Shown here piece by piece: positions 20,612 through 30,702 of a DNA stretch of 64,000 nt. Source of the DNA: a phage. Below the pieces are notes generated by a model. That model was not told the DNA's origin. It saw only the letters and a program-made list of their open reading frames with translations, and did no database searches. The first letter of the stretch is position 1, and each line of letters begins with the position of its first letter. The DNA lies in the sequence record PZ445427.1. One strand, 5' to 3'. The translations under genes and the position numbers were made by a program.

Positions 20612-20612
20612 T

Positions 20613-21290
20613 ATGACTAACTATCTTGTAAATGACTTTAAAAACTGGAAACCTTTGGAATATCTGTGGCTGTTTATAGCAGTCGCCTTTATTAGTTTAG
20701 CAAACTATAATGGTACAGCTCTAGATTGGGCTACTGCAATAACCAATGTGGTTTGTGTTATTCTGGTTGCAAAAGGACGTGTTTCCAACTATATTTGGGG
20801 CTTAGTGGGTGTTCTTACATATGGTATTACAGCTTTAAACGCAGATCTTTATGGTAACGCTGCACTAAACCTGCTATACTACGTTCCTATGCAGTTTTAT
20901 GGAATGTACTTATGGCATAAAAATAAGCCAAGTAATCTGCCAGATGTTCCAACTAAGGTTCTGACTAAAGCCCAAGCTCTGCTGACTCTAGGGATTCTAG
21001 CAGTAGCCACGTTAGGGTATGGTAGTTTCTTAGCTACTACGGCTGATCCATTCCCAATGTTGGATGCATTTACTGCGGTAGGTAGTGTGATCGCTATGTG
21101 GCTTATGGTTAAGCAGTATGCCGAGCAGTGGCTGATCTGGATTGCTATTAACATTGGTACTGTGTACATTTGGCTTGTAACTGCTCAATCTACAGGTGCA
21201 TCTTATGCAATCCTAGCAATGTGGCTAGTATTCTTAGGTAACTCTATTATGGGAGCCTATAAAGGATACTTTGTACGCGTTAACAAATAA
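20613..21290 (+). CDS. pnuC: PnuC-like nicotinamide riboside transporter
   Basis: Polytopic membrane protein immediately after nadR; start ATG 20613 after GGAGAG. Confidence 0.6.
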   Translation: MTNYLVNDFKNWKPLEYLWLFIAVAFISLANYNGTALDWATAITNVVCVILVAKGRVSNYIWGLVGVLTYGITALNADLYGNAALNLLYYVPMQFYGMYLWHKNKPSNLPDVPTKVLTKAQALLTLGILAVATLGYGSFLATTADPFPMLDAFTAVGSVIAMWLMVKQYAEQWLIWIAINIGTVYIWLVTAQSTGASYAILAMWLVFLGNSIMGAYKGYFVRVNK

Positions 21291-21296
21291 AGTAGT

Positions 21297-21325
21297 TATA
21301 GCCCTCGCTTAGAGGGCTATTATAC
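21297..21325 (+). terminator. hairpin, probable terminator
   Basis: tatagccctc-gctta-gagggctat stem-loop, weak U-tract. Confidence 0.4.
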
Positions 21326-21337
21326 AGAAATTTTCAC

Positions 21338-21366
21338 TTGCTTTATATAGAAAATTTCTGTATAAT
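21338..21366 (+). promoter_or_regulatory. T5-type early promoter
   Basis: ttgctt 21338..21343, 17 bp, tataat 21361..21366. Confidence 0.6.
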
Positions 21367-21396
21367 ATATTTATAAATTTGAGAGAGGAATCAAAC

Positions 21397-21693
21397 ATGA
21401 AACGCATTGTACTTGCATTGACTCTAGTATCTACTTCTGTATTTGCTGTTCCACAACAGGAACTTTGTCAAGTTCAGGTTTGTAATAAGTTAGAACGATT
21501 TACTTTGGATATTTGGTCACACATTAAAGATAATATGGGTGAACAGTGTTTTGATATTGTTCTGCCAAAAGAGCAGGCTGTTCCTGGTGCTGTTCTTAGC
21601 TCAGAGTCACGTTGGTGGCAGGGTTCTTCTATCAACCCAACTAAGAAGTCAGTGACACGTATCAAACAGGTATATCAGTGCAATGTTCAGTAA
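21397..21693 (+). CDS. secreted hypothetical protein (98 aa)
   Basis: ATG 21397 gives signal peptide MKRIVLALTLVSTSVFA; track start 21379 is TTG inside promoter box. Confidence 0.55.
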   Translation: MKRIVLALTLVSTSVFAVPQQELCQVQVCNKLERFTLDIWSHIKDNMGEQCFDIVLPKEQAVPGAVLSSESRWWQGSSINPTKKSVTRIKQVYQCNVQ

Positions 21694-21701
21694 AATTTCA
21701 C

Positions 21702-21730
21702 TTGCTTAATGCCGAAATTTTCTGTATAAT
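21702..21730 (+). promoter_or_regulatory. T5-type early promoter driving tRNA cluster
   Basis: ttgctt 21702..21707, 17 bp, tataat 21725..21730. Confidence 0.6.
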
Positions 21731-21744
21731 ATATTCATAAATTT

Positions 21745-21838
21745 GGAAGATTAACCCTAAAGGTAAGGGAGCTGTTTGCTAAACAGCCAGTAACTGTGGA
21801 GACACGGTGTGCCAGTTCGAATCTGGCATCTTCCTCCA
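21745..21838 (+). tRNA. tRNA-Ser(GCT)
   Basis: Acceptor ggaagat/atcttcc, anticodon loop ttgctaa, long variable arm, T-loop ttcgaat, CCA. Confidence 0.75.
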
Positions 21839-21843
21839 AATTT

Positions 21844-21921
21844 GGTTCTCAAGCTCATTTGGTATGAGCCGTCGCCTCATAAGCGAAAGGTAGGTAGGTT
21901 CGAATCCTCCGGGAGCCACCA
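21844..21921 (+). tRNA. tRNA-Met/Ile(CAT)
   Basis: Acceptor ggttctc/gggagcc with G-U pairs, anticodon loop ctcataa, T-arm with one mismatch. Confidence 0.55.
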
Positions 21922-21938
21922 ATTAATTAGGAGACTAT

Positions 21939-22124
21939 ATGTCTAGATTCTACGAAATGAAGAAAGCATTAGAAGAATGTCGGTGTAAGGACTGTCATGG
22001 TGGTGGTAGGCAGGATGATGCAGAACCTGGGGATATTTTCTGTAGAGAATGGGAATGTCCTACATGTAAAGGTACTGGTATCAACCCTGAATATGCAATT
22101 TGTCTAGACATTGAGCGAGGCTAA
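21939..22124 (+). CDS. small zinc-ribbon-like protein (61 aa)
   Basis: AGGAGA RBS; CxxC...CxxC. Confidence 0.5.
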   Translation: MSRFYEMKKALEECRCKDCHGGGRQDDAEPGDIFCREWECPTCKGTGINPEYAICLDIERG

Positions 22125-22125
22125 G

Positions 22126-22464
22126 ATGGATATTTTTACTACTCCGGCAATAAACCTTTTAGGTGTTGGCTTGTTCCAAGCTACGGTGTATCGTACCGAT
22201 GATTCTACTGATGTGGTAACGTTCATCGTACCTGAGTTCTTCCTAGAAAAGTTCTTTGAAGAGTTTGAGCAGTTCCGTGAAGAACACAATGCTCATTCCG
22301 ATATGGAAGATCTAGCAGCTATGTTCCCTGCGGTTTACGGCTATATCTTTGAAGGTAATGGCCTAGATCTTAATAAATCTGAACTCGTTGAACTTAATTG
22401 GGGCATCAATTTTGAGGTTGGCTCTCCATTCCCTCGATATTTCCAGGGTTTAGAGATTCGCTAA
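22126..22464 (+). CDS. hypothetical protein
   Basis: ATG 22126 after previous stop; track start 22111 is TTG. Confidence 0.5.
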   Translation: MDIFTTPAINLLGVGLFQATVYRTDDSTDVVTFIVPEFFLEKFFEEFEQFREEHNAHSDMEDLAAMFPAVYGYIFEGNGLDLNKSELVELNWGINFEVGSPFPRYFQGLEIR

Positions 22465-22472
22465 GATTACAT

Positions 22473-22549
22473 GGGGGTGTAATCGAATTGGCATAGGTAC
22501 TGGACTTAAAATTCAGGTTTTGTGGGTTCGAATCCCACCACCCCTACCA
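22473..22549 (+). tRNA. tRNA with anticodon TAA (Leu-like, short variable loop)
   Basis: Acceptor gggggtg/cacccct, anticodon stem ctgga/ttcag loop cttaaaa, T-arm gtggg-ttcgaat-cccac, CCA. Confidence 0.5.
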
Positions 22550-22564
22550 AATTAAGGAAATAAA

Positions 22565-22686
22565 ATGAAAGCTATTAAGAAAGCACTACGTAAATTTATG
22601 TACTGTCGTTTCCATAGTATTAAGGCTTCAACTAATGGTACGACTTACGATCGCTATGATCCTAAGTTTGGCTTACATTCTAAATA
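22565..22686 (+). CDS. small hypothetical protein (40 aa)
   Basis: AAGGAAA RBS then ATG; below track cutoff. Confidence 0.3.
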
Positions 22687-22700
22687 ACTGGAGATAATAA

Positions 22701-22907
22701 ATGGCTAATCCTGAAATTACTGCACAGCGCTTTATGCTGAAAGGTATTATTGCTGAAGCAGGCATGACAGAAGAAGTTGCAGATTTTCAAAAGCAGTTCC
22801 TAAATATTCTCACTCAAGCCAAAGAGCTAGGAGAGAAAGAACATGGCGCGGCTATTATGGCAATCACATTGGTTGGGCTTGATCTGGCAGAAGAATCAGG
22901 AGTTTAA
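22701..22907 (+). CDS. hypothetical protein (68 aa)
   Basis: GGAGA RBS. Confidence 0.5.
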   Translation: MANPEITAQRFMLKGIIAEAGMTEEVADFQKQFLNILTQAKELGEKEHGAAIMAITLVGLDLAEESGV

Positions 22908-22937
22908 CTCCTCCAAGCAGAAATTTTAAAAATGTAC

Positions 22938-22967
22938 TTGCTTTTTACTTAAGATTTCTGCTATAAT
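22938..22967 (+). promoter_or_regulatory. T5-type early promoter
   Basis: ttgctt 22938..22943, 18-bp spacer, tataat 22962..22967. Confidence 0.55.
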
Positions 22968-22997
22968 AGTTATATAAATTGATGAAGGAGTTAACGA

Positions 22998-23273
22998 ATG
23001 TCAAAACGTGTTACTTCAACTGGTGTTGAAAGTGCTGTTTGTAAATCCTGGGGTGGCTGGGAAGGTGAGATTGAATGGCTTTATTTCTACGATGTAGAAC
23101 TTCTGCCGGAAGTCAAAGCTAAATGTGTGGAAGCTGGTATGGCTCCTGATGCAAAGGCTGATATCGAAATCACCATGACTAAGCTAGAAGGTCGTGTAAT
23201 TACGCTCAATGATGATTATGAAGAAGTGTTCGAGCTTCCATTCAAACTGAGTGTCACTCCTAGCTTCGAGTAA
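22998..23273 (+). CDS. hypothetical protein (91 aa)
   Basis: AAGGAG RBS. Confidence 0.55.
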   Translation: MSKRVTSTGVESAVCKSWGGWEGEIEWLYFYDVELLPEVKAKCVEAGMAPDAKADIEITMTKLEGRVITLNDDYEEVFELPFKLSVTPSFE

Positions 23274-23309
23274 CTGATATAGCACTGAGCAAGTTCTTTA
23301 AAATTTGAC

Positions 23310-23338
23310 TTGCTCAGTCCTTCAAAACTTGATATAAT
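23310..23338 (+). promoter_or_regulatory. T5-type early promoter
   Basis: ttgctc 23310..23315, 17 bp, tataat 23333..23338. Confidence 0.55.
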
Positions 23339-23403
23339 ATTTATCTAATTTGGAAACATATTTAAAAGTGTTTAAATGAGAATTTTTGAATACTTCTAAA
23401 TAT

Positions 23404-23491
23404 GGGCGTTTATTCCGTAAGTGGTAGCGGAGGGGATTGTAAATCCCTGGTCATTGCGACTCGAGTGGTTCGACTCCATTAACGCCCACCA
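23404..23491 (+). tRNA. tRNA-Tyr(GTA)
   Basis: Acceptor gggcgtt/aacgccc, anticodon loop ttgtaaa, long variable arm, T-loop ttcgact, CCA. Confidence 0.75.
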
Positions 23492-23508
23492 AATTAAAGG
23501 TAAAGGAT

Positions 23509-24000
23509 ATGTATATTGATCGGATAATTCAAGAAGCTGCAAATAGGGGTATTATACAGTTGGGTTCACCCGCTGATATAAATAAAGATCTAATATTAGA
23601 AAGCCTCACATTTGGTACAGCTAACTTTGGTCGCGATAGTAATCGTCGATATAGCTTGAAGTTATCTGCACTATCTTTTATCAAGTATAACAAAAGTATT
23701 GGAGAAAAATCCAGCTGTGGTTTTATTTACGCAATAACTAACCCAGCTTGGGATAACTATGTAAAAATTGGTATGTCTTCTGATCCTAAAACAAGATTAA
23801 GAAATTACCAAACCTATTCTCCTTTACGTGATTATAAGTTAATACATTGGTCATTCTGGTTTAATGCTAGAGAAGCGGAGAAAATGCTTCATAATAGCTT
23901 TCCTGAACGGCTTAACGAATGGGTAGTGTTAGACAGAGGTGTAGACGAAATACTTTCCGAGTTTAACAATTTATCCAATAAGCAATTTAAGTCCTGTTAG
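23509..24000 (+). CDS. GIY-YIG nuclease-like protein (T5orf172-type domain)
   Basis: CGFIYAITN ... YVKIGMSSD ... RLRNY arrangement typical of GIY-YIG/T5orf172 domain; sits inside tRNA cluster; stop overlaps tRNA-Glu. Confidence 0.5.
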   Translation: MYIDRIIQEAANRGIIQLGSPADINKDLILESLTFGTANFGRDSNRRYSLKLSALSFIKYNKSIGEKSSCGFIYAITNPAWDNYVKIGMSSDPKTRLRNYQTYSPLRDYKLIHWSFWFNAREAEKMLHNSFPERLNEWVVLDRGVDEILSEFNNLSNKQFKSC

Positions 24001-24067
24001 ACAAACTGGTAAAGTCACTACCCTTTCAAGGTAGGATTTGCGGGTTCGATCCCCGCACAGGACGCCA
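23991..24067 (+). tRNA. tRNA-Glu(TTC)
   Basis: Acceptor gtcctgt/acaggac, anticodon stem ctacc/ggtag loop ctttcaa, T-arm gcggg-ttcgatc-cccgc, CCA. Confidence 0.7.
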
Positions 24068-24075
24068 ATTTCTGC

Positions 24076-24152
24076 ATTCCTAGAGTGTTACTGGACAGCA
24101 TGTCGGTCTCCAAAACCGTACGGTCTAGGTTCGAGTCCTAGTAGGTTTGCCA
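24076..24152 (+). tRNA. tRNA-Trp(CCA), acceptor stem imperfect
   Basis: Anticodon loop ctccaaa, T-arm ctagg-ttcgagt-cctag, CCA; 5' acceptor pairs only 5 of 7. Confidence 0.4.
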
Positions 24153-24158
24153 ATATTT

Positions 24159-24233
24159 GCACCTTTAGCTGAGATGGATTAGCGCTTGCCTGAAGAGCTT
24201 GAGAGGTTCGTTCAATTCGAACAGGGTGCACCA
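24159..24233 (+). tRNA. tRNA-Phe(GAA), weak anticodon stem
   Basis: Acceptor gcacctt/agggtgc, anticodon loop ctgaaga, T-arm gttcg-ttcaatt-cgaac, CCA. Confidence 0.45.
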
Positions 24234-24252
24234 ATTAATCAATATAAGGCTT

Positions 24253-24633
24253 ATGGAAACAAAAACGTGTAATAAGTGTGGAAATACATTTCCCTTGAGT
24301 ACGGACTACTTCTTTAAAAGTGGTAAGCAAGTCTCAGGAAAACAAAAATGGAAACCTATGTGCAAACAATGCGAAAGTATATCTCGTATTGAATACTATA
24401 ATAATACAATTGCCGAGGTTTTTCCTGACTTACATTGTGCTATTTGTGGGTATAACAAGTGTCCACAGGCGATTGATTTCCATCATTTAGAGCAGGATGA
24501 TAAAGAGTTTAATATTAGTGAAGCTAGACGGGGTACGTTTAACAAAGAAAAACTAATAGAAGAGCTTGAGAAATGTGTACCTTTATGCTGTAGGTGTCAC
24601 AGAGAATATCATGCTGGAGTTATTGAGCTTTAA
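24253..24633 (+). CDS. HNH endonuclease-like protein
   Basis: CAICGY...HHL...N...CCRCHREYH HNH/zinc motif; start ATG 24253 (track start 24199 overlaps tRNA). Confidence 0.65.
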   Translation: METKTCNKCGNTFPLSTDYFFKSGKQVSGKQKWKPMCKQCESISRIEYYNNTIAEVFPDLHCAICGYNKCPQAIDFHHLEQDDKEFNISEARRGTFNKEKLIEELEKCVPLCCRCHREYHAGVIEL

Positions 24634-24647
24634 ACTGAAAAATGTAG

Positions 24648-24676
24648 TTGCTTAAATCCTTAAAGTTCTGTATAAT
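24648..24676 (+). promoter_or_regulatory. T5-type early promoter
   Basis: ttgctt 24648..24653, 17 bp, tataat 24671..24676. Confidence 0.6.
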
Positions 24677-24704
24677 TATTATATAAATTGAACTGGAGAA
24701 CTAG

Positions 24705-24893
24705 ATGAAAGCACCTAAACCGAAATTAGTTAAGTTCGACTGCTGTGACACTGAAATCTTATTTACTAAGTTTGGTGAATTTAAGATGTGTGAATGTGGA
24801 ACATGTGGTTATGATCATGGTGATGGATATTATTGCAGAACCCTCGGGCCTTCTGAACTAATCCACTTCTCATGGCCGGAAAGTAAAGAATAA
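24705..24893 (+). CDS. small Cys-rich protein (62 aa)
   Basis: GGAGAA RBS; CCxxC...CxCGxC. Confidence 0.5.
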   Translation: MKAPKPKLVKFDCCDTEILFTKFGEFKMCECGTCGYDHGDGYYCRTLGPSELIHFSWPESKE

Positions 24894-24895
24894 TA

Positions 24896-24971
24896 CGACC
24901 GTTGGCTGAATGGCTTAGGCGGAGGCCTGCAAAACCTCCTTATGTGAGTTCGAATCTCATGCGGTCGTCCA
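24896..24971 (+). tRNA. tRNA-Cys(GCA)
   Basis: Acceptor cgaccgt/gcggtcg, anticodon region ctgcaaa, discriminator U, T-loop ttcgaat, CCA. Confidence 0.6.
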
Positions 24972-24978
24972 AATTTTA

Positions 24979-25061
24979 GGGTCGTTAGCCAAGCGGTTTG
25001 GCGGTGGACTGTTAATCCATGTCGAAAGACAACGTAGGTTCGAATCCTACACGGCCCGCCA
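24979..25061 (+). tRNA. tRNA-Asn(GTT) with unusually long variable arm
   Basis: Acceptor gggtcgt/acggccc, D stem gcca/tggc, anticodon stem gtgga/tccat loop ctgttaa, 13-nt variable arm (gtc-gaaa-gac), T-arm gtagg-ttcgaat-cctac, CCA. Confidence 0.6.
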
Positions 25062-25164
25062 TATTCTGTGTAGAGTTAAGTAAACCGGTAGCCAACCAGC
25101 TATCATTGCTGATATCGAATTCAGTCACAGATACCATTTTTCATTAACAACTGAGGAAATAGAT

Positions 25165-25350
25165 ATGACAACTCGTGCAATTGCTCGACTAGAAGCTGAT
25201 CGTGATAGTCTGATTAATAATATTAAGGTTTGGGATCAAGAAATTGAAAACCAAAAACTGACATTAATTCAAGATATGCAACAACAGAATGCCCGTCGTG
25301 AAGCTCTAAAAGAGGTTGAGGAAGCTATCGAAAAACTCAAAACTGAGTAA
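25165..25350 (+). CDS. hypothetical coiled-coil protein (61 aa)
   Basis: GAGGAAA RBS. Confidence 0.5.
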   Translation: MTTRAIARLEADRDSLINNIKVWDQEIENQKLTLIQDMQQQNARREALKEVEEAIEKLKTE

Positions 25351-25359
25351 ATAAATTAT

Positions 25360-25436
25360 GCGATCGGGGCTGGCTTGGTAATGGTACTCCCCTGTCACGG
25401 GAGAGAATGTGGGTTCGAATCCCATCGGTCGCGCCA
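25360..25436 (+). tRNA. tRNA-Asp(GTC)
   Basis: Acceptor gcgatcg/cggtcgc, anticodon stem ctccc/gggag loop ctgtcac, T-loop ttcgaat, CCA. Confidence 0.75.
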
Positions 25437-25442
25437 AATAAT

Positions 25443-25518
25443 ACATCCATAGCTCAATGGTTAGAGCTACCGCCTCTTAAGCGGAGGGTTCTAGGTTCAA
25501 GTCCTAGTGGGTGTACCA
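25443..25518 (+). tRNA. tRNA-Lys(CTT)
   Basis: Acceptor acatcca/tgggtgt, D stem gctc/gagc, anticodon loop ctcttaa, T-arm ctagg-ttcaagt-cctag, CCA. Confidence 0.65.
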
Positions 25519-25519
25519 A

Positions 25520-25731
25520 ACATCAGAGCAGCGTGATGTACTGCAAAGACCCAAAGTCCGGGGTGGACTTCTTGATTCAAAGGAGCAGGCATTAATTATC
25601 ATTCTAGCGTGGTGGAGAGGGGACACCAGCTTGCCGAGGGTAGAAGCTCGTTCGATTCGAGTGAAAGAATGGTTCTCGTAAATCCGCACAAGTGATAGTA
25701 GGTTCAAGTCCTACCTAGATTGACTCATTAT
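25520..25731 (+). other. unresolved tRNA-like region (two T-arm-like hairpins without canonical acceptor stems)
   Basis: gctcg-ttcgatt-cgagt at 25646..25662 and gtagg-ttcaagt-cctac at 25698..25714; no 7-bp acceptor partner found by eye. Confidence 0.3.
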
Positions 25732-25805
25732 GCGTTCGTAGTTAAAAGGTATAATTTTTGGTTGCCAACCAGAAGTTGAGGGTTCGATTCCCTCCGACCG
25801 CACCA
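25732..25805 (+). tRNA. tRNA-Gly(GCC)
   Basis: Acceptor gcgttcg/cgaccgc (1 mismatch), anticodon stem tttgg/ccaga loop ttgccaa, T-arm gaggg-ttcgatt-ccctc, CCA. Confidence 0.65.
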
Positions 25806-26053
25806 AATTTAGGTTTCTGCTTCCTAGAGAACTGACTCCTAGATAAACAAGGCGATGAGTTTCCGGCCGGTTCTAGTCGCTGAAAATCCTCCCGACCAGG
25901 TAGGTGTAAGTAAACGAAAGTTTACTTATTAAGTAAGTCCGACACATCGGCGGGTGTGTTCTAGTACTTAAAGAAGGTCTCGCAAACTTTCTCGCTAGCA
26001 TGAGTTGATAGCTCGGTGACTTACCTAATAAGTAAATTTATTAAAAAATGTAG

Positions 26054-26082
26054 TTGCTATTTAGCTTAATTCTCTGTATAAT
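26054..26082 (+). promoter_or_regulatory. T5-type early promoter
   Basis: ttgcta 26054..26059, 17 bp, tataat 26077..26082. Confidence 0.6.
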
Positions 26083-26114
26083 ATATTTTATAAAGTGAGT
26101 TAACAAAGAATATT

Positions 26115-26192
26115 CTCCGTGTAGCTCAGTTTGGCCAGAGCGTTTCGTTTGGGGCGATAGGGTCGGGGGTTCAAATCCTCCCACGGAGACCA
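26115..26192 (+). tRNA. tRNA-Pro(TGG)
   Basis: Acceptor ctccgtg/cacggag, anticodon loop tttgggg (G37), variable gggtc, T-loop ttcaaat, CCA. Confidence 0.7.
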
Positions 26193-26198
26193 AACAAT

Positions 26199-26276
26199 TG
26201 CGGGTTAGATCTCTGGTAGAGATCGCTAGTCTCATAAGCTAGAAAGAGGTAGGTTCGATTCCTACACCCGCTTCCA
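26199..26276 (+). tRNA. tRNA-Met/Ile(CAT)
   Basis: Acceptor tgcgggt/acccgct with 1:72 mismatch, anticodon stem ctagt/gctag loop ctcataa, T-arm gtagg-ttcgatt-cctac, CCA. Confidence 0.6.
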
Positions 26277-26297
26277 ATTTAATAGAAGGATTTCGAA

Positions 26298-26462
26298 ATG
26301 AAATTATTTCGTTTAAAAGTAAGTGATCTACGTTCTAGCAAAGATCGTAAGAAGTATCCACTAGCCCATTACGGTAAAGATGAAAATGAAGTGATGGCGG
26401 AATTTGGTATTAATCATCCTTACTTGAAAGTTCACTCTATTAAAGAAGTATACATGTATTAA
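26298..26462 (+). CDS. small hypothetical protein (54 aa)
   Basis: AAGGA RBS; between tRNAs; below track cutoff. Confidence 0.35.
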   Translation: MKLFRLKVSDLRSSKDRKKYPLAHYGKDENEVMAEFGINHPYLKVHSIKEVYMY

Positions 26463-26464
26463 AT

Positions 26465-26542
26465 TGACCGTTAACTCAACTGGATAAGAGTACCGAGCTT
26501 TTACCTCGTAGGTTCTGGGTTCGAATCCCAGACGGTCAACCA
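26465..26542 (+). tRNA. tRNA-Lys(TTT)
   Basis: Acceptor tgaccgt/acggtca, anticodon loop cttttac, T-arm ctggg-ttcgaat-cccag, CCA. Confidence 0.7.
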
Positions 26543-26559
26543 ATTTAAAGGAATTTGTT

Positions 26560-26877
26560 ATGAATATTAACAAAGTTCTAGGAACAATATCAGAAATGTC
26601 TGGTAGAGCTGGAAAACGCTTTACTGAATTATGTATTAAAAATCAAAAAGTACCAGAACATCAATGTCATTATTGTCGAGACTGTGAACAATACCATGAA
26701 ATGTGTGTGGTTGAAGATTGGGTCTGGGATCAGATAAGAAAAGAACAATCCAAAGATATTGTTCTATGTTTTACTTGTATGGAACGACGTTTAGGACGTA
26801 AAATTACTCTTAAAGATCTTAAACATGTTCCCTGTAACGCTCCTTACTTCATTGGTTTTAGAATGGAGAGATTTTGA
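26560..26877 (+). CDS. Cys-rich zinc-ribbon-like protein (105 aa)
   Basis: AAAGGAA RBS; CHYCRDC and CFTC motifs. Confidence 0.55.
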   Translation: MNINKVLGTISEMSGRAGKRFTELCIKNQKVPEHQCHYCRDCEQYHEMCVVEDWVWDQIRKEQSKDIVLCFTCMERRLGRKITLKDLKHVPCNAPYFIGFRMERF

Positions 26878-27010
26878 TGATAATCTGGTTTTACTTAATG
26901 AAACAAAAAGTCAAGCAGTACAACGTATTTTCTGCTGATTTTACTATTGGAATGTTCTTAGCGGGATTATGTGAGTTTCTGTTTGAAGCCTACATCATAG
27001 GAAGTCTTTT

Positions 27011-27084
27011 GCTCGGTTAGTTTAATGGGAGAACCCCGTCTTTACACGGCGGTTGCGATAGTTCGATTCTATCACCGAGTACCA
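27011..27084 (+). tRNA. tRNA-Val(TAC)
   Basis: Acceptor gctcggt/accgagt, anticodon stem ccgtc/ggcgg loop tttacac, T-arm gatag-ttcgatt-ctatc, CCA. Confidence 0.7.
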
Positions 27085-27103
27085 ATTAACTCAAAATAAG
27101 GAA

Positions 27104-27463
27104 TTGCAAATGCAATTATCAAGCAAGGTTCAAGGCTATTTCGGGCATGTAACAATGGAGTTCGCTATCTCTAAAGGTTGGGACTTCGAACAAGATCTAG
27201 CTGAATTCTACAAAGATATTGATCTGAATGTACCGTACATAGGACTCTCTACTGGTCAAGAGATCACAGAAGGCGATGTGTTCAAGGCAAGTCAAGGTGA
27301 GGTAACACCTAGTTTTGCCGAGTTCTGGTTAGGTATTACTTTGAAAGAAGATGCACCGGATGGTGGTGTGGTTATGCAGAGTATGCACTCTGGAAGCTCT
27401 GACTACCTTTTCGTTAGTGACGTTAAGGAAATACAAGAAATCTGCAAAAATGTACTTGCTTGA
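27104..27463 (+). CDS. hypothetical protein (119 aa)
   Basis: AAGGAA RBS. Confidence 0.55.
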   Translation: MQMQLSSKVQGYFGHVTMEFAISKGWDFEQDLAEFYKDIDLNVPYIGLSTGQEITEGDVFKASQGEVTPSFAEFWLGITLKEDAPDGGVVMQSMHSGSSDYLFVSDVKEIQEICKNVLA

Positions 27464-27484
27464 TGCTTAATTTCTTGTTATAAT
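27456..27484 (+). promoter_or_regulatory. T5-type early promoter
   Basis: ttgctt 27456..27461, 17 bp, tataat 27479..27484. Confidence 0.6.
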
Positions 27485-27727
27485 ATTTATATAAATTGAT
27501 GGGGAGAAATCCTCATCAAAGTTCACTAAGGTATTAGCTCGACCTAGGACTGGCTGCCAAAAAGCACGATCCCTACGACTTGGGAGAAGTTCTAGATTAG
27601 TCCACTAGATTCAGTGGCAACTGAATAGTGTATCGGGTTTGTGAAGAGCGGTTATCCTCTACTGGCTAATGTCTGAGGGTAATACGCACACCGAGCTAAT
27701 AGCCTTAGTAAACTAGAAGGAATATCT

Positions 27728-27991
27728 ATGTTTGATCTTAAAGATATGGCTAAGAAACTAATGTCGCAACGTTATCAACAAAGAACCCTCCATAAACGAG
27801 TTTCCGATATGAAGAAACGTTGCAATAATGCTAAGTATTATAATAGTCTTAATAAACTATCTGATGTAGATCTTGCTAAAACTGAAGCAATATATAATCA
27901 CTTAGTAGTAGAATCTGATATAGTGAATAAAGATATTGCTAGGCTAGAAGCTCAGATTGTAGCAACTGTTCTCGATATGTATAGAGAATAA
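27728..27991 (+). CDS. hypothetical protein (87 aa)
   Basis: AGAAGGAA RBS; preceded by about 240-nt ORF-free leader. Confidence 0.5.
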   Translation: MFDLKDMAKKLMSQRYQQRTLHKRVSDMKKRCNNAKYYNSLNKLSDVDLAKTEAIYNHLVVESDIVNKDIARLEAQIVATVLDMYRE

Positions 27992-28000
27992 ATAAATTTT

Positions 28001-28079
28001 GGGGAATGGGTCTGCATGGAGTGGACACCTCGCTTGCACCGAGGACATCAGAACGGTTCGATTCCGTTATTCTCCACCA
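28001..28079 (+). tRNA. tRNA-Ala(TGC)
   Basis: Acceptor ggggaat/attctcc with G3-U70, anticodon stem cctcg/cgagg loop cttgcac, T-arm aacgg-ttcgatt-ccgtt, CCA. Confidence 0.65.
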
Positions 28080-28085
28080 AAATTC

Positions 28086-28161
28086 GGGGTCATAGGTTAT
28101 TTGGTTAAACTTACTGCCTTGCAAGCAGTGGAACTCAGTTCAATTCTGAGTGACTCCACCA
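28086..28161 (+). tRNA. tRNA-Ala(TGC) second copy (divergent sequence)
   Basis: Acceptor ggggtca/tgactcc with G3-U70, anticodon stem actgc/gcagt loop cttgcaa, T-arm ctcag-ttcaatt-ctgag, CCA. Confidence 0.6.
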
Positions 28162-28180
28162 AACAAATTAAGGAAATAAT

Positions 28181-28399
28181 ATGGTATTCTTAGCAGCCTC
28201 TGTAGTTCTTGCAGCTTTAGCACTAGCTATCTATTTTAGAACTATTAAAGATTTAGCTAAAGAAAAGAAAACTTTCTTTACTGATTATTCTTGGGGCGCT
28301 CCATATACCGTCCGCTTTATCAGCTTAGAAGCTATGCTGATAATGGTATTCAGTGGTATAGGTTCCGTTGTTACAGGGTTACTATTTATTTCTAACTAA
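28181..28399 (+). CDS. small membrane protein (72 aa)
   Basis: AAGGAAA RBS; two hydrophobic segments. Confidence 0.5.
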   Translation: MVFLAASVVLAALALAIYFRTIKDLAKEKKTFFTDYSWGAPYTVRFISLEAMLIMVFSGIGSVVTGLLFISN

Positions 28400-28406
28400 A
28401 TAAAAT

Positions 28407-28487
28407 GGGGATGTGGCGAAATTGGCAGACGCGCTAGATTTAGGCTCTAGTCTTCGGGTGTGGGTTCGAGTCCCTCCATCCCTACCA
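28407..28487 (+). tRNA. tRNA-Leu(TAG)
   Basis: Acceptor ggggatg/catccct, anticodon stem ctaga/tctag loop tttaggc, long variable arm, T-loop ttcgagt, CCA. Confidence 0.7.
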
Positions 28488-28661
28488 AACATTGGATTAA
28501 CTCATGATGAAAACTCCTATAACTGATATCTGGTTAGCTGTTAATACATTAACTAAAGAGTATGTGTTTATAGAGTATGGTCAGAGGTATGACCAAAAGA
28601 TGTATAATCTCATACTTCCAGTATCCGCTAATGAAGTTTATGATTTAATCCTGAGATCTAC

Positions 28662-28752
28662 GGAAGAGCAAATCGATTAGGTGACGAAAACCGCTTGGAA
28701 AGTGGCTGACTGGTAAAACGGCTTGAGAGTTCGAATCTCTCTTCTTCCGCCA
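28662..28752 (+). tRNA. tRNA-Ser(GGA)
   Basis: Acceptor ggaagag/ttcttcc, anticodon loop ttggaaa, long variable arm, T-arm gagag-ttcgaat-ctctc, CCA; 91 nt. Confidence 0.55.
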
Positions 28753-28774
28753 AACAACTTACTAGGAAACTAAT

Positions 28775-29131
28775 ATGTCAGAAGTGACAATCTATAATGA
28801 AATGCTTGGCAAAATTTTTACTAGTGTATGCCAAGACCAAGATACTCTTATCTTCATTTGTACTGATGGTAAGAACTATAAGTTTTATCATGAGCAGGAC
28901 TGCTGTGAAGATGTTCATATAGATGATATTATTGGTGATTTACATGACCTTTTAGGTTATCCAATCATAGAAGCAGAGGAAGTAATCACACACGCTACAG
29001 AAGATTGGGATTCAGTAACCCATACATGGTATAAGTTTGCCACAGCTAAAGGCTGTGTAACCGTTAAATGGCATGGTTCTAGTAATGGTTATTACTCTGA
29101 ATCTGTAAACTTTGTAATATACGAACAATAG
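28775..29131 (+). CDS. hypothetical protein (118 aa)
   Basis: AGGAAA RBS. Confidence 0.55.
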   Translation: MSEVTIYNEMLGKIFTSVCQDQDTLIFICTDGKNYKFYHEQDCCEDVHIDDIIGDLHDLLGYPIIEAEEVITHATEDWDSVTHTWYKFATAKGCVTVKWHGSSNGYYSESVNFVIYEQ

Positions 29132-29219
29132 AAGATAGGACGTAGTGGTACGTAACCGGTCTTGAAAACCGGCCCGCTGTAGTGATATGGTGATGGTTCG
29201 ACTCCATTATCTTCTGCCA
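29130..29219 (+). tRNA. tRNA-Ser(TGA)
   Basis: Acceptor agaagat/atcttct perfect, anticodon stem ccggt/accgg loop cttgaaa, long variable arm, T-loop ttcgact, CCA. Confidence 0.75.
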
Positions 29220-29356
29220 AATCTTGAAGTATGCCGGAATCGGTAGACGGGGCTTCCTAAAGGGCGTAAGGGGAACATCCACTCCTCATAAGATACCCGA
29301 AAACGAGGCTGAGATAAATGGTCTATCTCGTGAAGGTTCAAGTCCTTCTGCTTCTT
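29220..29356 (+). other. unresolved tRNA-like structured region
   Basis: Hairpin gagata-aatggtc-tatctc followed by T-arm-like gaagg-ttcaagt-ccttc; no canonical acceptor stem found. Confidence 0.3.
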
Positions 29357-29577
29357 GATATTCAATGGCTCAAAGAGTAACGGTGCACCTTTCTAGAGAA
29401 TTTCCTGGGCGAGAATCCAGGTGTAATCAACTAGTTGTTAGTGTGATGAGTTTCGGAGAGCCGCCACAATTGAAAATTCGTACTCGTCTTGAGCTTCGTG
29501 CAATAGAAGATAACTTGATTAGTATTCTAGAAAATGCTATTTGAGGATGGTTTCGCTAACCCTGCGAGTTTTCAATT

Positions 29578-29654
29578 GTGGCTATATCATAATTGGTTAA
29601 TGATCCTGATTGTGAATCAGGCCTATGTGGATTCGAGTTCCACTAGCCACCCCA
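29578..29654 (+). tRNA. tRNA-His(GTG)
   Basis: Acceptor gtggcta/tagccac, anticodon stem cctga/tcagg loop ttgtgaa, T-arm gtgga-ttcgagt-tccac, CCA. Confidence 0.75.
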
Positions 29655-29660
29655 AATATT

Positions 29661-29735
29661 GCGTCCTTATTTCAACGGAAAGAATGTAAAGCTACGAACT
29701 TTACGATCGGGGTTCGATTCCCTGAGGATGCACCA
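29661..29735 (+). tRNA. tRNA-Arg(ACG)
   Basis: Acceptor gcgtcct/aggatgc, anticodon stem taaag/cttta loop ctacgaa, T-arm cgggg-ttcgatt-ccctg, CCA. Confidence 0.7.
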
Positions 29736-29759
29736 ATTAACTTAAACAGGAAAATAATA

Positions 29760-29960
29760 ATGGCTGATTTCTGTAAAGAATGCTCTATCGATATGTGGGG
29801 CAAAGATACACAAGATCTTTCTGGTCTTATCACTGAAGCCGAGGTTAAAGAGGGCTACGGTGCTGTAGTAATCTGCGAAGGTTGTGGTATTATCCGTGTT
29901 GATCATGAAGGCAAACGCCTTGAAGAACCTGAGCCAATCGCAACGGTTCCTGTAGAGTAA
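29760..29960 (+). CDS. small zinc-ribbon-like protein (66 aa)
   Basis: ATG 29760 after AGGAAAA; CxxC...CxxC; track ORF 29625.. overlaps tRNAs and is rejected as start. Confidence 0.5.
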   Translation: MADFCKECSIDMWGKDTQDLSGLITEAEVKEGYGAVVICEGCGIIRVDHEGKRLEEPEPIATVPVE

Positions 29961-29968
29961 AGAATTAT

Positions 29969-30044
29969 TGGGATGTAGATCAATTGGCAGATCGTCGGCC
30001 TCTGACTCCGAAGGTTCCACGTTCGATCCGTGGCATCCCAGCCA
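29969..30044 (+). tRNA. tRNA-Gln(CTG)
   Basis: U1-A72 acceptor tgggatg/catccca, anticodon loop ctctgac, T-arm ccacg-ttcgatc-cgtgg, 3' end CCCAGCCA. Confidence 0.7.
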
Positions 30045-30050
30045 AACAAT

Positions 30051-30126
30051 TGGAGAGTAGTGTAACGGTTAGCACAACGGCCTTTGACTCCGTTAATGGT
30101 AGGTTCGATTCCTCCTTCTCCAGCCA
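30051..30126 (+). tRNA. tRNA-Gln(TTG)
   Basis: U1-A72 acceptor tggagag/ttctcca, anticodon loop ctttgac, T-loop ttcgatt, CCA. Confidence 0.65.
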
Positions 30127-30132
30127 ATTTAT

Positions 30133-30207
30133 GCGTGATTAGTTCAGTGGCTAGAATAACTGGCTTCCAACCAGTAGACACGAGTTCGACTCTCGTATCC
30201 CGCACCA
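30133..30207 (+). tRNA. tRNA-Gly(TCC)
   Basis: Acceptor gcgtgat/atcccgc (1 mismatch), anticodon stem actgg/ccagt loop cttccaa, T-arm acgag-ttcgact-ctcgt, CCA. Confidence 0.7.
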
Positions 30208-30223
30208 AATATAAGGAAACGTT

Positions 30224-30466
30224 ATGGACGTTTTTGAGTTTCGTAATAAAAGCCCCAATAGGCGCGTTTTGATTATTGGTGAAACATATCGAGCTTATGA
30301 GCAAGAAGATGGTTCGGTTTTACTAAACGATGAAAAGCAAGGTTATAGCTTTTATCCAGAAGAAACGTATGAAGAATTTCGTACCAAGTTTCTCTTACCA
30401 GACTGGCTAGCAGTAGCCGAGCAACGAGAATCCGAAGATGGCAGAAAACCTAAAATTAAAGGTTGA
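30224..30466 (+). CDS. hypothetical protein (80 aa)
   Basis: AAGGAAA RBS. Confidence 0.55.
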   Translation: MDVFEFRNKSPNRRVLIIGETYRAYEQEDGSVLLNDEKQGYSFYPEETYEEFRTKFLLPDWLAVAEQRESEDGRKPKIKG

Positions 30467-30612
30467 CAAACAAAAGAAATACGTTGAGGTTGAATTAGGC
30501 GAAGAACGCTTAAAGCTATCCTTCGAGTTTCTTCAGCAGTTGGCGATGACAGTAATGTCTGATAAGTCTCCTGTATTTGAGAAAGAAATCCCGTTGAAAT
30601 GACGGGTTTATT

Positions 30613-30687
30613 GCTCCTAAAGCATTGCTGGCGATGCAGTTGCCTTGTAAGCATCTGAACCGGGTTCGATTCCTGGTGGGAGCACCA
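30613..30687 (+). tRNA. tRNA-Thr(TGT)
   Basis: Acceptor gctccta/tgggagc, D stem gcat/atgc, anticodon loop cttgtaa, T-arm ccggg-ttcgatt-cctgg, CCA. Confidence 0.7.
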
Positions 30688-30702
30688 AATTTAAAAATTC
30701 AT

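What the first reader, a model, noticed from the sequence alone, without database searches (positions are those of the whole stretch)
25520..26045. tRNA-cluster segments that do not resolve into canonical tRNAs
25520..25731 contains two consecutive T-arm-like hairpins without a 7-bp acceptor partner; 25806..26045 is a further 240 nt with no ORF and no tRNA motif; 29220..29356 has a perfect 6-bp hairpin followed by a T-arm-like hairpin. These could be degenerate or intron-containing tRNAs, tRNA-derived regulatory RNAs, or processing signals.
Basis: seen in the sequence. Interest (0 to 1): 0.45.

Follow-up and report, generated by a model that had tools for sequence, protein, structure and literature searches.

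The report
Small non-tRNA RNAs in phage tRNA cluster
The gaps in this T5-like phage's tRNA cluster hold small structured RNA genes, most of them counterparts of "stable RNAs of unknown function" already annotated in phage T5, plus two conserved pieces nobody has annotated; the finding is real but largely already known.

Summary
The window is an Epseptimavirus, a T5 relative, 99.5% identical to phage SuperGirl. ARAGORN and Rfam find 29 ordinary tRNAs and none in the flagged gaps. Most of the gaps match misc_RNA features of the T5 record AY543070:
- 25600-25724 = RNA2, "tRNA-like stable RNA" (88% identity).
- 25931-26033 = RNAIV.
- 26034-26098 = early promoter P13a.
- 29223-29366 = RNA1 (81%).

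Covariation supports each fold. RNA2 is a tRNA scaffold (8-bp acceptor, D arm, T arm) whose anticodon loop is replaced by a conserved branched insert. 20 of its 35 pairs are compensated once the Erwinia and Enterobacter phage homologues are added, and both of those encode 3' CCA. RNA1 is a class-II-type tRNA-like RNA with a rod-like 41-nt insert. RNAIV is a closing stem plus three hairpins.

Two pieces have no T5 counterpart and no sound annotation:
- Segment A (25519-25599) is in 132 phage genomes. It is 96% identical to the Klebsiella-phage copy, while shared tRNAs are about 74% identical.
- Segment B (25806-25930) is in 188 genomes.

They are not spliced tRNAs, pseudogenes or ORFs. Function is unknown. 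Verdict: real, mostly already known, modest interest.

The parts
25519..25599 (+). Segment A: an 81-nt structured spacer RNA module running from the CCA end of tRNA-Lys(CTT) to the first base of RNA2. Three hairpins: 25528-25531/25541-25544, 25549-25552/25561-25564, and 25569-25574/25578+25580-25584. No T5 counterpart; annotated nowhere as an RNA.
   Evidence: Present in 132 phage records, about 50 Epseptimavirus and about 78 Klebsiella Sugarlandvirus. It fills the inter-tRNA gap exactly in four different contexts. All 14 proposed pairs hold in 5 variants, and 4 pairs are compensated in phage Eos. It is 96.3% identical to the Klebsiella copy, against a 73.6% median for 20 shared tRNAs. No Rfam match and no E. 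coli match.
25600..25724 (+). Orthologue of T5 RNA2 ('tRNA-like stable RNA with unknown functions'). Helices:
- acceptor 25600-25607/25715-25722
- D-like arm 25610-25614/25624-25628
- anticodon-stem analogue 25630-25633/25689-25692
- extension helix 25638-25641/25682-25685
- inner T-arm-like hairpin 25646-25650/25658-25662
- small hairpin 25666-25669/25673-25676
- 5-nt variable loop
- T arm 25698-25702/25710-25714
There is no encoded CCA (G-ACT in place of G-CCA).
   Evidence: 88% identity over 125 nt to AY543070 rna2. With 14 variants, 5 pairs are compensated. With 16 homologues, 20 of 35 pairs are compensated, 98.9% of cells are paired, and 0 of 500 shuffles reach the observed values. The covariance model also matches ordinary tRNAs end to end. 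The KEY and KKP_3711 homologues encode CCA.
25732..25805 (+). Ordinary tRNA-Gly(GCC), inside the range given in the finding. T5 lacks it.
   Evidence: ARAGORN; Rfam tRNA at 61.1 bits; presence and absence among relatives.
25806..25930 (+). Segment B: a 125-nt run of four hairpins. B1 is about 25807-25844. The B2 core AAACAAGGCGAT..TTTCCGGCCGG..GTCGCT is about 25851-25881. A third hairpin is about 25888-25904. B3 (AAGTAAAC-GAAA-GTTTACTT, extended to 10 pairs) is 25906-25929. No T5 counterpart except a remnant of the 3' strand of B3.
   Evidence: Present in 188 phage records; most carry no annotation there and a few have a 'hypothetical protein' over it. The sub-modules are swapped between phages. 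RNAalifold gives four hairpins but few informative compensations. T5 keeps only AAAGTTTACTTATT.
25931..26033 (+). Orthologue of T5 RNAIV ('stable RNA with unknown functions'). A closing stem (about 25933-25940 with 26015-26024) encloses three hairpins. The long middle hairpin has an invariant 7-nt loop, CTCGCAA.
   Evidence: Its position matches T5 rnaIV, immediately upstream of promoter P13a. Twenty variants give 9 compensated pairs, 99.4% paired, and 0 of 500 shuffles reach the observed count.
26034..26098 (+). Early sigma-70 promoter, the orthologue of T5 P13a. The -35 hexamer TTGCTA is at 26054-26059 and the -10 hexamer TATAAT at 26077-26082. It drives tRNA-Pro and tRNA-fMet downstream.
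   Evidence: 92% identity to the T5 P13a feature. It is the best + strand promoter match in 24500-26400.
29223..29366 (+). Orthologue of T5 RNA1 ('tRNA-like stable RNA'). Helices:
- acceptor 29226-29231/29349-29354
- D arm 29232-29236/29241-29245
- anticodon stem 29251-29256/29305-29310, continued by 29262-29264/29296-29298
- hairpin 29269-29274/29283-29288 with an 8-nt loop that is invariant in 14 of 15 variants (one T5 record differs by one base)
- long variable arm 29311-29316/29324-29329
- T arm 29332-29336/29344-29348
There is no CCA.
   Evidence: 81% identity over 144 nt to AY543070 rna1. ARAGORN in intron mode calls it 'tRNA-Phe(aaa)' with a 41-nt insert. Fifteen variants give 7 compensated pairs and 99.5% paired.
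29367..29577 (+). Context: orthologues of T5 RNAI (29367-29470; conserved ends GGCTC.../...GAGCC-G-CCA, interior replaced) and of T5 RNAIII (29471-29577; 96% identity), running up to tRNA-His.
   Evidence: The RNAIII fold has z = -3.16.
25064..25136 (+). Context: orthologue of T5 RNA3 ('putative tRNA-like RNA'), 2 nt after tRNA-Asn, ending in ACCA.
   Evidence: 97% identity to AY543070 rna3.

Best explanation
The flagged segments are a string of small, structured, non-coding RNA genes embedded in the early tRNA operon of a T5-like phage. Three are orthologues of RNAs the depositors of the T5 genome list as stable RNAs of unknown function (RNA2, RNAIV, RNA1). One stretch is the early promoter P13a. 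Two are conserved modules never annotated as RNAs (segment A, segment B).

How they most likely arise (inferred). They are transcribed together with the flanking tRNAs from sigma-70 early promoters. They are cut out of the polycistronic precursor by the host enzymes that mature the neighbouring tRNAs: RNase P at each tRNA or tRNA-like 5' end, and RNase E plus exonucleases at 3' ends. They then persist because their ends are closed in stems.

What RNA1 and RNA2 are (shown). They are tRNA mimics. They keep an acceptor stem, a D arm and a T arm, but carry a conserved rod or branched domain where the anticodon loop should be, so they cannot decode.

What they most likely do (inferred, roughly 30% belief). 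They use the tRNA scaffold for processing, stability and entry into tRNA-binding sites, while the conserved insert binds a partner, for example a host tRNA-directed enzyme or defence nuclease. Segments A and B most likely act as structured operon spacers that either give a trans-acting small RNA or organise precursor folding and processing.
For: - Identity: the window is 99.5% identical to Epseptimavirus SuperGirl. blastn of the AY543070 misc_RNA and promoter features places RNA2, RNAIV, P13a, RNA1, RNAI, RNAIII, RNA2H and RNA3 in the window in T5 order.
- Not tRNAs.
- Structure under selection:
  - RNA2: 20 of 35 pairs compensated, and all 7 helices carry at least one compensated pair (5 pairs on the unfitted alignment).
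  - RNA1: 7 pairs.
  - RNAIV: 9 pairs.
  - Segment A: 4 pairs.
  - Controls with the 3' partners slid give 28-57% paired, against 99-100% observed.
- Sequence under selection: 56 consecutive RNA2 columns (43-98) carry a single substitution in 14 Tequintavirus and Epseptimavirus variants. Most modules are 87-97% identical to the window, against 76-82% for neighbouring small ORFs and the promoter region, and 96-99% for real tRNAs. Segment A is 96% identical across genera whose tRNAs are about 74% identical.
- tRNA mimicry: the RNA2 covariance model matches genuine tRNAs end to end at 20-28 bits. The KEY and KKP_3711 homologues have a 7-bp acceptor, a discriminator base and an encoded CCA.
- Co-transcription and processing context: the modules abut tRNAs with gaps of 0-7 nt, and there is no + strand terminator in 24500-26400.
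- T5 depositors call these molecules 'stable RNA'.
Against: - No expression or end-mapping data for this phage could be examined.
- The whole T5 tRNA region can be deleted without loss of viability in the laboratory (Glukhov et al. 2018, as cited in PMC11464382). T5 itself lacks segments A and B. So any function is accessory.
- Covariation for segment A comes from a single diverged lineage (Eos), and covariation for segment B is weak.
- The RNA2 count of 20 compensated pairs was made on an alignment fitted to the model, which leans towards that structure.
- Nothing computed here identifies a binding partner, so the decoy/adaptor function is conjecture.
Confidence: 0.75

Rival explanations
1. 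The segments act only in cis. They are structured spacers that insulate neighbouring tRNAs from misfolding and position RNase P and RNase E cleavages in the polycistronic precursor. After release they have no role of their own.
For: The modules fill inter-tRNA gaps exactly, with 0-7 nt spacing. Segment B and its sub-hairpins are swapped or absent between phages. T5 does without segments A and B. The region is dispensable in the laboratory.
Against: Most tRNA pairs in the same cluster are separated by only 6-7 nt without any such spacer, so spacers are not needed for processing. Insulation would select for structure, not for the near-invariant 56-nt RNA2 core or for 96% identity of segment A across genera. 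The T5 record lists RNA2, RNAIV and RNA1 as stable molecules.
Confidence: 0.25
2. They are decaying tRNA pseudogenes and neutral junk left by duplication, deletion and homing-endonuclease traffic in the tRNA cluster.
For: The cluster is mosaic and carries homing endonucleases in T5. Truly degenerate tRNA-like remnants do exist at 15682-15755 and 28665-28752. RNA2 has two T arms and an Arg-like loop, suggesting a partial duplication of a tRNA. RNA2 in this window has lost the CCA that its KEY and KKP_3711 homologues encode.
Against: Compensatory substitutions keep 99-100% of pairs in RNA1, RNA2, RNAIV and segment A. The non-tRNA insert is the most conserved part of RNA2. Most of these modules are better conserved than neighbouring ORFs. 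RNA2 is retained from E. coli, Salmonella, Enterobacter and Erwinia phages.
Confidence: 0.07
3. RNA1 and RNA2 are intron-containing tRNA genes that are spliced into working tRNAs.
For: ARAGORN in intron mode calls 29225-29356 as a tRNA with a 41-nt intron. At an 80% threshold it calls 25605-25724 as a tRNA with a 27-nt intron.
Against: From established knowledge, bacterial tRNA introns are self-splicing group I introns of roughly 200 nt or more, and the protein-dependent splicing of short introns is archaeal and eukaryotic. No intron family matches. The predicted 'exon' tRNAs have poor or arbitrary anticodon loops (AAA; AGG). The insert covaries as a stable helix and is conserved. There is no encoded CCA, unlike 28 of 29 real tRNAs here. 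T5 lists the 125-nt and 144-nt forms as the stable RNAs.
Confidence: 0.03
4. The segments encode small proteins, as some GenBank records of related phages annotate ('hypothetical protein' over segment A/RNA2 and over segment B).
For: ORF 25511-25681 (56 aa, GTG start) matches a CDS in SuperGirl. Segment A contains AAAGGAG followed by ATG in the Klebsiella phages.
Against: That ORF starts inside tRNA-Lys and runs through segment A into RNA2. The frame is closed in the Klebsiella context, and the D-loop of RNA2 has a 1-nt indel among relatives. The segment B ORF is broken by 1-nt and 5-nt indels. The substitutions are compensatory for RNA pairing rather than synonymous. The Klebsiella ATG reads straight through tRNA-Phe.
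Confidence: 0.03

Closest known systems
Phage T5 stable RNAs RNA2, RNAIV and RNA1 (misc_RNA features rna2, rnaIV, rna1 of GenBank AY543070 and AY692264; the Ksenzenko laboratory annotation)
   Same: Orthologous sequence: 88% for RNA2, about 69-81% for RNAIV, 81% for RNA1. Same order and neighbours (RNA2, then RNAIV, then P13a, then tRNA-Pro; tRNA-Ser(UGA), then RNA1, RNAI, RNAIII, then tRNA-His). Same strand as the tRNAs. Same predicted folds, kept by compensatory changes.
   Different: This phage belongs to another genus (Epseptimavirus). Between RNA2 and RNAIV it carries tRNA-Gly(GCC) plus segment B, and before RNA2 it carries tRNA-Lys(CTT) plus segment A, all of which T5 lacks. Its RNAIV has diverged strongly in sequence. 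None of these RNAs is annotated in the closest relatives' records.
Phage T4 'RNA species I and II' in the T4-type tRNA gene cluster
   Same: Small non-tRNA RNA genes embedded in a phage tRNA cluster (PMC2330249, Figure 1 legend). From my own knowledge, they are co-transcribed and processed with the tRNAs and their function has been unknown for decades.
   Different: No detectable sequence similarity: the sensitive blastn search of the region against 50,697 phage records returned T5-like phages apart from matches to the embedded tRNA-Gly. Different phage family. Their structures were not compared here.
E. coli tRNA-operon spacer RNAs acting in trans (the 3' external transcribed spacer of glyW-cysT-leuZ, which acts as a sponge for small RNAs)
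   Same: An RNA released from the spacer or trailer of a tRNA precursor by tRNA processing that has its own function. This is the nearest precedent for segments A and B. The precedent is discussed in PMC6191717 and PMC8383071, found.
   Different: No sequence similarity to E. coli. No evidence here for Hfq binding or for pairing with any small RNA. Segments A and B are phage-borne and internal to the operon.
Non-decoding tRNA mimics: the tmRNA tRNA-like domain, bacterial Y-RNA-like YrlA, and gammaherpesvirus MHV68 tRNA-like RNAs (from my own knowledge)
   Same: An acceptor/T-arm scaffold processed by tRNA enzymes, with no functional anticodon and a second domain that carries the function.
   Different: ARAGORN's tmRNA mode and permissive Rfam scans find no match to tmRNA, YrlA or any other family. 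RNA2 is only 125 nt, with no pseudoknots, no G3-U70 pair and no credible tag reading frame.

Membership tests
Canonical tRNA (Rfam RF00005; ARAGORN default) | Detected at the family's curated threshold or by the default tRNA finder | tested here: not met
   No call in 25519-25731, 25806-26114 or 29220-29577. Nothing for tRNA in these gaps even at E up to 10.
Canonical tRNA (Rfam RF00005; ARAGORN default) | 7-bp acceptor stem, D arm, and T arm with a T-loop | tested here: met
   Met for RNA2 and RNA1 only, with compensatory support. The RNA2 model matches real tRNAs end to end. Not met for RNAIV, segment A or segment B.
Canonical tRNA (Rfam RF00005; ARAGORN default) | 5-bp anticodon stem closed by a 7-nt anticodon loop | tested here: not met
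   In RNA2 the stem analogue opens into an insert of about 55 nt with two hairpins. In RNA1 it continues as a rod with a 41-nt insert.
Canonical tRNA (Rfam RF00005; ARAGORN default) | Encoded 3' CCA, as in the other tRNA genes of this cluster | tested here: not met
   28 of 29 called tRNAs encode CCA. RNA2 has G-ACT and RNA1 has none. The RNA2 homologues in KEY and KKP_3711 do encode CCA.
T5 RNA2 (AY543070 rna2) | Sequence homology over the full length | tested here: met
   88% over 125 nt, E = 2e-40. 148.8 bits with the covariance model (the window sequence was used in building the model).
T5 RNA2 (AY543070 rna2) | Conserved position in the tRNA cluster, upstream of RNAIV, P13a and tRNA-Pro | tested here: met
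T5 RNA2 (AY543070 rna2) | Accumulates as a stable RNA in infected cells | not testable with these tools
   Only the depositor's note in the T5 record supports this. No RNA data are available for this phage.
T5 RNAIV (AY543070 rnaIV) | Homology, position directly upstream of P13a, and a shared fold | tested here: met
   81% over the 5' 53 nt and about 69% overall. Same position. 9 compensated pairs and 99.4% paired.
T5 RNA1 (AY543070 rna1) | Homology, position between tRNA-Ser(UGA) and RNAI/RNAIII/tRNA-His, and a shared fold | tested here: met
   81% over 144 nt. Order confirmed. 7 compensated pairs.
Intron-containing bacterial tRNA (group I intron in the anticodon loop) | Intron with a group I fold, roughly 200 nt or more, matching Rfam Intron_gpI | tested here: not met
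   The inserts are 41 nt and about 55 nt. No intron family matches at E up to 10.
tmRNA | tRNA-like domain with alanine identity, plus a tag reading frame and pseudoknots | tested here: not met
   ARAGORN's tmRNA mode found none in 24900-30300. The only Rfam tmRNA-type hit is a 17-nt T-arm match inside tRNA-Gly.
tRNA-operon spacer-derived small RNA (3'ETS-leuZ type) | Lies in a transcribed spacer of a tRNA operon, bounded by tRNA processing sites | tested here: met
   Segments A and B abut tRNA 3' CCA ends and the next RNA's 5' end, with no promoter or terminator between them.
tRNA-operon spacer-derived small RNA (3'ETS-leuZ type) | Released fragment is stable and pairs with other RNAs in trans | not testable with these tools
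   This needs RNA-seq, RIL-seq or similar experiments. No target was sought computationally.

The most novel reading that the evidence does not exclude
RNA2 and RNA1 are purpose-built tRNA decoys or adaptors. The tRNA scaffold gets them processed, CCA-tailed and admitted to tRNA-binding sites. The conserved non-anticodon domain then captures or blocks a host factor, for example a tRNA-cleaving defence nuclease or a tRNA-modifying enzyme. Segment A is an ultra-conserved, trans-acting small RNA exchanged as an exact 80-nt cassette between phage genera. Together they would make the T5-type 'tRNA cluster' a counter-defence RNA island rather than just a codon-supply locus.
Probability: 0.15. Interest if true: 0.65.

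Novelty: new member of a known kind. Interest (0 to 1): 0.3.

Why it matters
T5-like phages are now central to work on tRNA-targeting bacterial defences. T5's own tRNA-Lys neutralises the PARIS system (PMC11464382). Yet their tRNA clusters are annotated as tRNAs plus 'hypothetical proteins'.

This analysis shows that the gaps hold at least five conserved structured RNAs per cluster. No Rfam family matched the gaps scanned here, and no RNA is annotated there in any relative's record examined, while some records carry spurious CDS calls over them. The folds and homologue sets given here are enough to build RNA families, correct the annotations, and design deletion and decoy tests for RNAs whose function has, to my knowledge, been open since the 1980s.

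The practical gain is modest, because most of these RNAs were already recorded for T5.

Tried and rejected
- Rfam at gathering and permissive thresholds: only tRNAs, plus chance hits (plastid UTR, snoRNA and lncRNA models).
- tmRNA: none found. The 8-codon frame MVLVNPHK inside the RNA2 core was considered as a tag and rejected, for three reasons:
  - it has no alanine identity pair;
  - it has no convincing ribosome-binding site;
  - it carries a nonsynonymous change between lineages.
- IMG/VR scans for the RNA2 core, segment A and segment B returned few contigs (22, 2 and 6), and among those compared no variant more diverged than the GenBank relatives.
- The single metagenome scan for the segment A motif gave 9 chance matches and 2 Sugarlandvirus-like contigs.
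- E. coli genomes have no match to segment A, so a host origin is not supported.
- tRNA-Leu ancestry of RNA1: the D-loop motif GGAATCGGTAGACG lines up with tRNA-Leu(TAG) at the same positions, but the score does not exceed shuffles. It is suggestive only.
- tRNA-Arg reading of RNA2: ARAGORN calls the 5' 70 nt of the KKP_3711 homologue 'tRNA-Arg(ccg)', but only 4 of 7 acceptor pairs are Watson-Crick, and KEY has a deletion in that loop. It was rejected as a functional tRNA and kept as a hint of origin.
- RNAalifold's single long hairpin for the RNA2 core was replaced by a two-hairpin model, because KKP_3711 keeps the inner TTCGATT hairpin with 4 of its 5 pairs changed.
- A pseudoknot in segment A (5' tail ACATCA with loop TGATGT) is possible on sequence, but I judge it sterically doubtful and it shows no covariation.
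- MAFFT mis-registered the Eos and KKP_3711 rows, so pair counts for them were made on a model-based alignment (A7) or a hand alignment.
- The original 1980s T5 RNA papers and the T4 genome review were not held in the paper library. No T5 transcriptome paper covering these RNAs was found.
Full report
**What the window is.** The 1-kb neighbourhood is 99.5% identical to Escherichia phage SuperGirl and about 99% identical to EPS7, both in the genus Epseptimavirus, family Demerecviridae, relatives of T5. ARAGORN finds 29 tRNA genes, all on the + strand, between 16287 and 31212. Rfam's tRNA model confirms 25 of them in 18000-36000.

**Checking the observation.**
- No tRNA is called in 25519-25731, 25806-26114 or 29220-29577. 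Permissive Rfam scans of these gaps find nothing credible.
- The two T-arm-like hairpins exist, at 25646-25662 and 25698-25714. So does the 6-bp hairpin plus T arm at 29311-29348.
- The strict T-arm motif occurs 24 times in the window against 0.14 expected. Three hits are outside called tRNAs: 15733, 25701 and 29335.
- The statement that there is no acceptor partner is wrong. 25600-25607 pairs with 25715-25722: 7 of 8 pairs here, and all 8 in most relatives.

**What the segments are.** The T5 record AY543070, and the st0 record AY692264, annotate a set of misc_RNA features in the T5 tRNA region, each described as a stable RNA, a tRNA-like stable RNA or (rna3) a putative tRNA-like RNA: rna2, rnaIV, rna1, rnaI, rnaIII, rna2H and rna3. 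The records also annotate early promoters. blastn of those features against the window gives this map:

| T5 feature | Window coordinates | Identity |
|---|---|---|
| RNA2 | 25600-25724 | 88% |
| RNAIV | 25931-26033 | 81% over the 5' half |
| promoter P13a | 26034-26098 | 92% |
| RNA1 | 29223-29366 | 81% |
| RNAI | 29367-29466 | ends only |
| RNAIII | 29471-29576 | 96% |
| RNA2H | from 27532 | 96% over 113 nt |
| RNA3 | 25064-25136 | 97% |

The promoter hexamers TTGCTA-17-TATAAT lie at 26054-26082, and there is no + strand terminator in 24500-26400. Two pieces have no T5 counterpart: segment A (25519-25599) and segment B (25806-25930).

- ARAGORN in intron mode calls 29225-29356 a 'tRNA-Phe(aaa)' with a 41-nt insert and a long variable arm.
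- RNA2 is called only at an 80% threshold. It comes out either as two overlapping half-tRNAs or as a tRNA with a 27-nt 'intron'.
- Nothing is called in segment A, segment B or RNAIV, and no tmRNA is found.

**RNA2.**
- Fourteen distinct variants from T5-like genomes show 56 consecutive columns (43-98) with a single substitution. The D-like and T stems change by compensatory substitutions.
- My tRNA-like model and RNAalifold agree on the acceptor stem, the D-like arm, an anticodon-stem analogue, an extension helix and the T arm. Five pairs are compensated, and 0 of 500 shuffles reach the observed count.
- Two diverged homologues settle the rest:
  - Enterobacter phage KKP_3711 has the same gene order as the window. 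It keeps the inner TTCGATT hairpin with 4 of its 5 pairs changed, and it ends in G-CCA.
  - Erwinia phage KEY has an entirely different but complementary acceptor stem (AGACAAT/ATTGTCT), followed by A-CCA. Its D-like stem is compensated, and so is one pair of its anticodon-stem analogue.
- A covariance model built from the 14 variants finds 16 homologues. It also matches ordinary tRNAs end to end at 20-28 bits, skipping the insert.
- On the model-based alignment, 20 of 35 pairs are compensated, every helix has at least one compensated pair, and 98.9% of cells are paired (28-44% when the 3' partners are slid). That alignment leans towards the model.
- So RNA2 is a tRNA scaffold with a 5-nt variable loop, in which a two-hairpin domain of about 55 nt replaces the anticodon loop. 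In this window the CCA is mutated to ACT, whereas 28 of 29 real tRNAs encode CCA.

**RNA1.** Fifteen variants support an acceptor stem, a D arm, a 6-bp anticodon stem that continues through a 3-bp helix into a 6-bp hairpin, a 6-bp variable arm and a T arm. The hairpin's 8-nt loop is invariant in 14 of the 15 variants. Seven pairs are compensated and 99.5% of cells are paired. Its D-loop lines up with the tRNA-Leu type, but not significantly.

**RNAIV.** Twenty variants of three sequence types support a closing stem and three hairpins, with 9 compensated pairs and 99.4% of cells paired. Sequence identity to the window's copy is only about 69%.

**Segment A.**
- It occurs in 132 phage records. 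Most carry no annotation there, and some have a 'hypothetical protein' over it.
- It fills the space from a tRNA (or tRNA-like) CCA end to the next 5' end in four contexts:
  - Lys(CTT) to RNA2, in this window and in KKP_3711
  - Lys(TTT) to Phe, in phage Eos
  - an unannotated tRNA-like element to Phe, in Klebsiella phages
- Three hairpins hold in all 5 variants. Of the 18 columns that differ between Eos and the window, the 8 in paired positions form 4 clean compensatory doubles.
- It is 96.3% identical to the Klebsiella phage copy, while 20 shared tRNAs have a median identity of 73.6% and a maximum of 85.1%.
- It has no match in E. coli genomes.

**Segment B.**
- It occurs in 188 records and reads as four hairpins.
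- The first hairpin is replaced by unrelated hairpins in some phages. The core and the last hairpin (GAAA loop) are nearly invariant, so covariation is weak.
- T5 retains only the 3' strand of the last hairpin right after RNA2. This suggests that T5 lost tRNA-Gly(GCC) plus segment B by deletion.

**Selection.** Across 22 Tequintavirus and Epseptimavirus loci, real tRNAs are about 96-99% identical to the window. Most RNA modules are 87-97% identical, and the small ORFs and the promoter region 76-82%. The overlapping ORFs are not credible: they cross tRNA and RNA boundaries, and they are broken by indels or context changes in relatives.

**Mechanism.**
- Shown: the identity, order and strand of the modules, their folds, the purifying selection on them, and the tRNA-like scaffold of RNA1 and RNA2.
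- Inferred from established tRNA-operon biology: co-transcription from early promoters, excision by RNase P, RNase E and exonucleases, and stability from closed ends.
- Conjectured: the tRNA mimics use the conserved insert to bind a host factor.
- The region is dispensable for T5 in the laboratory, so any role is conditional.
- Homing endonucleases in the T5 and T4 tRNA clusters give a plausible engine for the cassette-like mosaicism. T4 SegB recognises the T-arm motif.

**Comparison and novelty.**
- RNA2, RNAIV and RNA1 are orthologues of already annotated T5 RNAs, so that part is already known.
- Segments A and B are unannotated members of the same kind of element.
- T4's RNA species I and II and the E. 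coli 3'ETS-leuZ spacer RNA are analogues, not relatives.
- No Rfam family matched the gaps scanned here.
Most of it is explained by existing T5 annotation. What remains of interest is the unknown function and the unusually conserved segment A.

Noticed in passing
window 25519-25599 vs L028:5001-5080 (Klebsiella phage vB_Kpn_IME260): Segment A is 96.3% identical across two phage genera whose 20 shared tRNAs are only about 74% identical (maximum 85%). The identity starts and stops exactly at the tRNA boundaries. This means either cassette-like lateral transfer or extreme sequence constraint.
   Followed up: partly
window 15682-15755: A degenerate tRNA-like element that ARAGORN calls only at a lowered threshold, as 'tRNA-Ser(act)'. 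It has a perfect T arm (GCAGG-TTCGAAT-CCTGC at 15730-15746) and lies about 530 nt upstream of tRNA-Arg(TCT), outside the main cluster.
   Followed up: partly
window 28665-28752: A degenerate tRNA-Ser(GGA), seen only with ARAGORN's lowered threshold. It probably corresponds to T5 tRNA-Ser2(GGA), which one T5 record (AY587007) flags as a pseudogene.
   Followed up: no
L002:2074-2180 (Stitch), L009 about 8283-8390; L028:4904-5000 (Klebsiella IME260); L008 and L026 (OSYSP type): Further unannotated tRNA-like modules that end in an acceptor stem plus ACCA but have aberrant middles. One is about 104 nt. One is 97 nt. One is about 75 nt, with the loop TACTTCG and an 11-nt T loop. Such elements appear to be common in Demerecviridae tRNA clusters.
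   Followed up: no
L003:2628-2660 (T5) vs window 25725-25930: Directly after RNA2, T5 keeps only AAAGTTTACTTATT, the 3' strand of the last hairpin of segment B. The T5 arrangement therefore looks like a deletion of tRNA-Gly(GCC) plus most of segment B.
   Followed up: partly
L001:1638-1713 (SuperGirl), also Stitch; corresponds to window 25437-25442: The closest relatives have a 76-nt spacer containing a hairpin-rich element (closing stem TTTGCAG/CTGCAAA) between tRNA-Asp and tRNA-Lys(CTT), where this window has only a 6-nt spacer.
   Followed up: no
window 25511-25681 (+); L001:1782-1952: A 56-aa ORF is annotated as a hypothetical protein in SuperGirl (bas29_0105) and other relatives. It starts inside tRNA-Lys and runs through segment A into RNA2, so it is almost certainly a spurious gene call.
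   Followed up: partly
window 29367-29470: The RNAI orthologue keeps the T5 ends (GGCTC... and ...GAGCC-G-CCA, an acceptor-like stem with an encoded CCA), but its interior is replaced by unrelated sequence.
   Followed up: no
window 25971-25993 (RNAIV middle hairpin): The long hairpin of RNAIV ends in an invariant 7-nt loop, CTCGCAA. This fits the anticodon-loop pattern Y-U-NNN-R-N, in an RNA with a cloverleaf-like topology but oversized arms.
   Followed up: no
window 25633-25639 vs T5-type homologues: The loop TGCCGAG in RNA2 (TGGCGAG in T5-type phages) resembles an arginine anticodon loop (CCG or GCG) with G in place of U33. Together with the two T arms, it hints that RNA2 arose from a tRNA-Arg by partial duplication.
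   Followed up: partly
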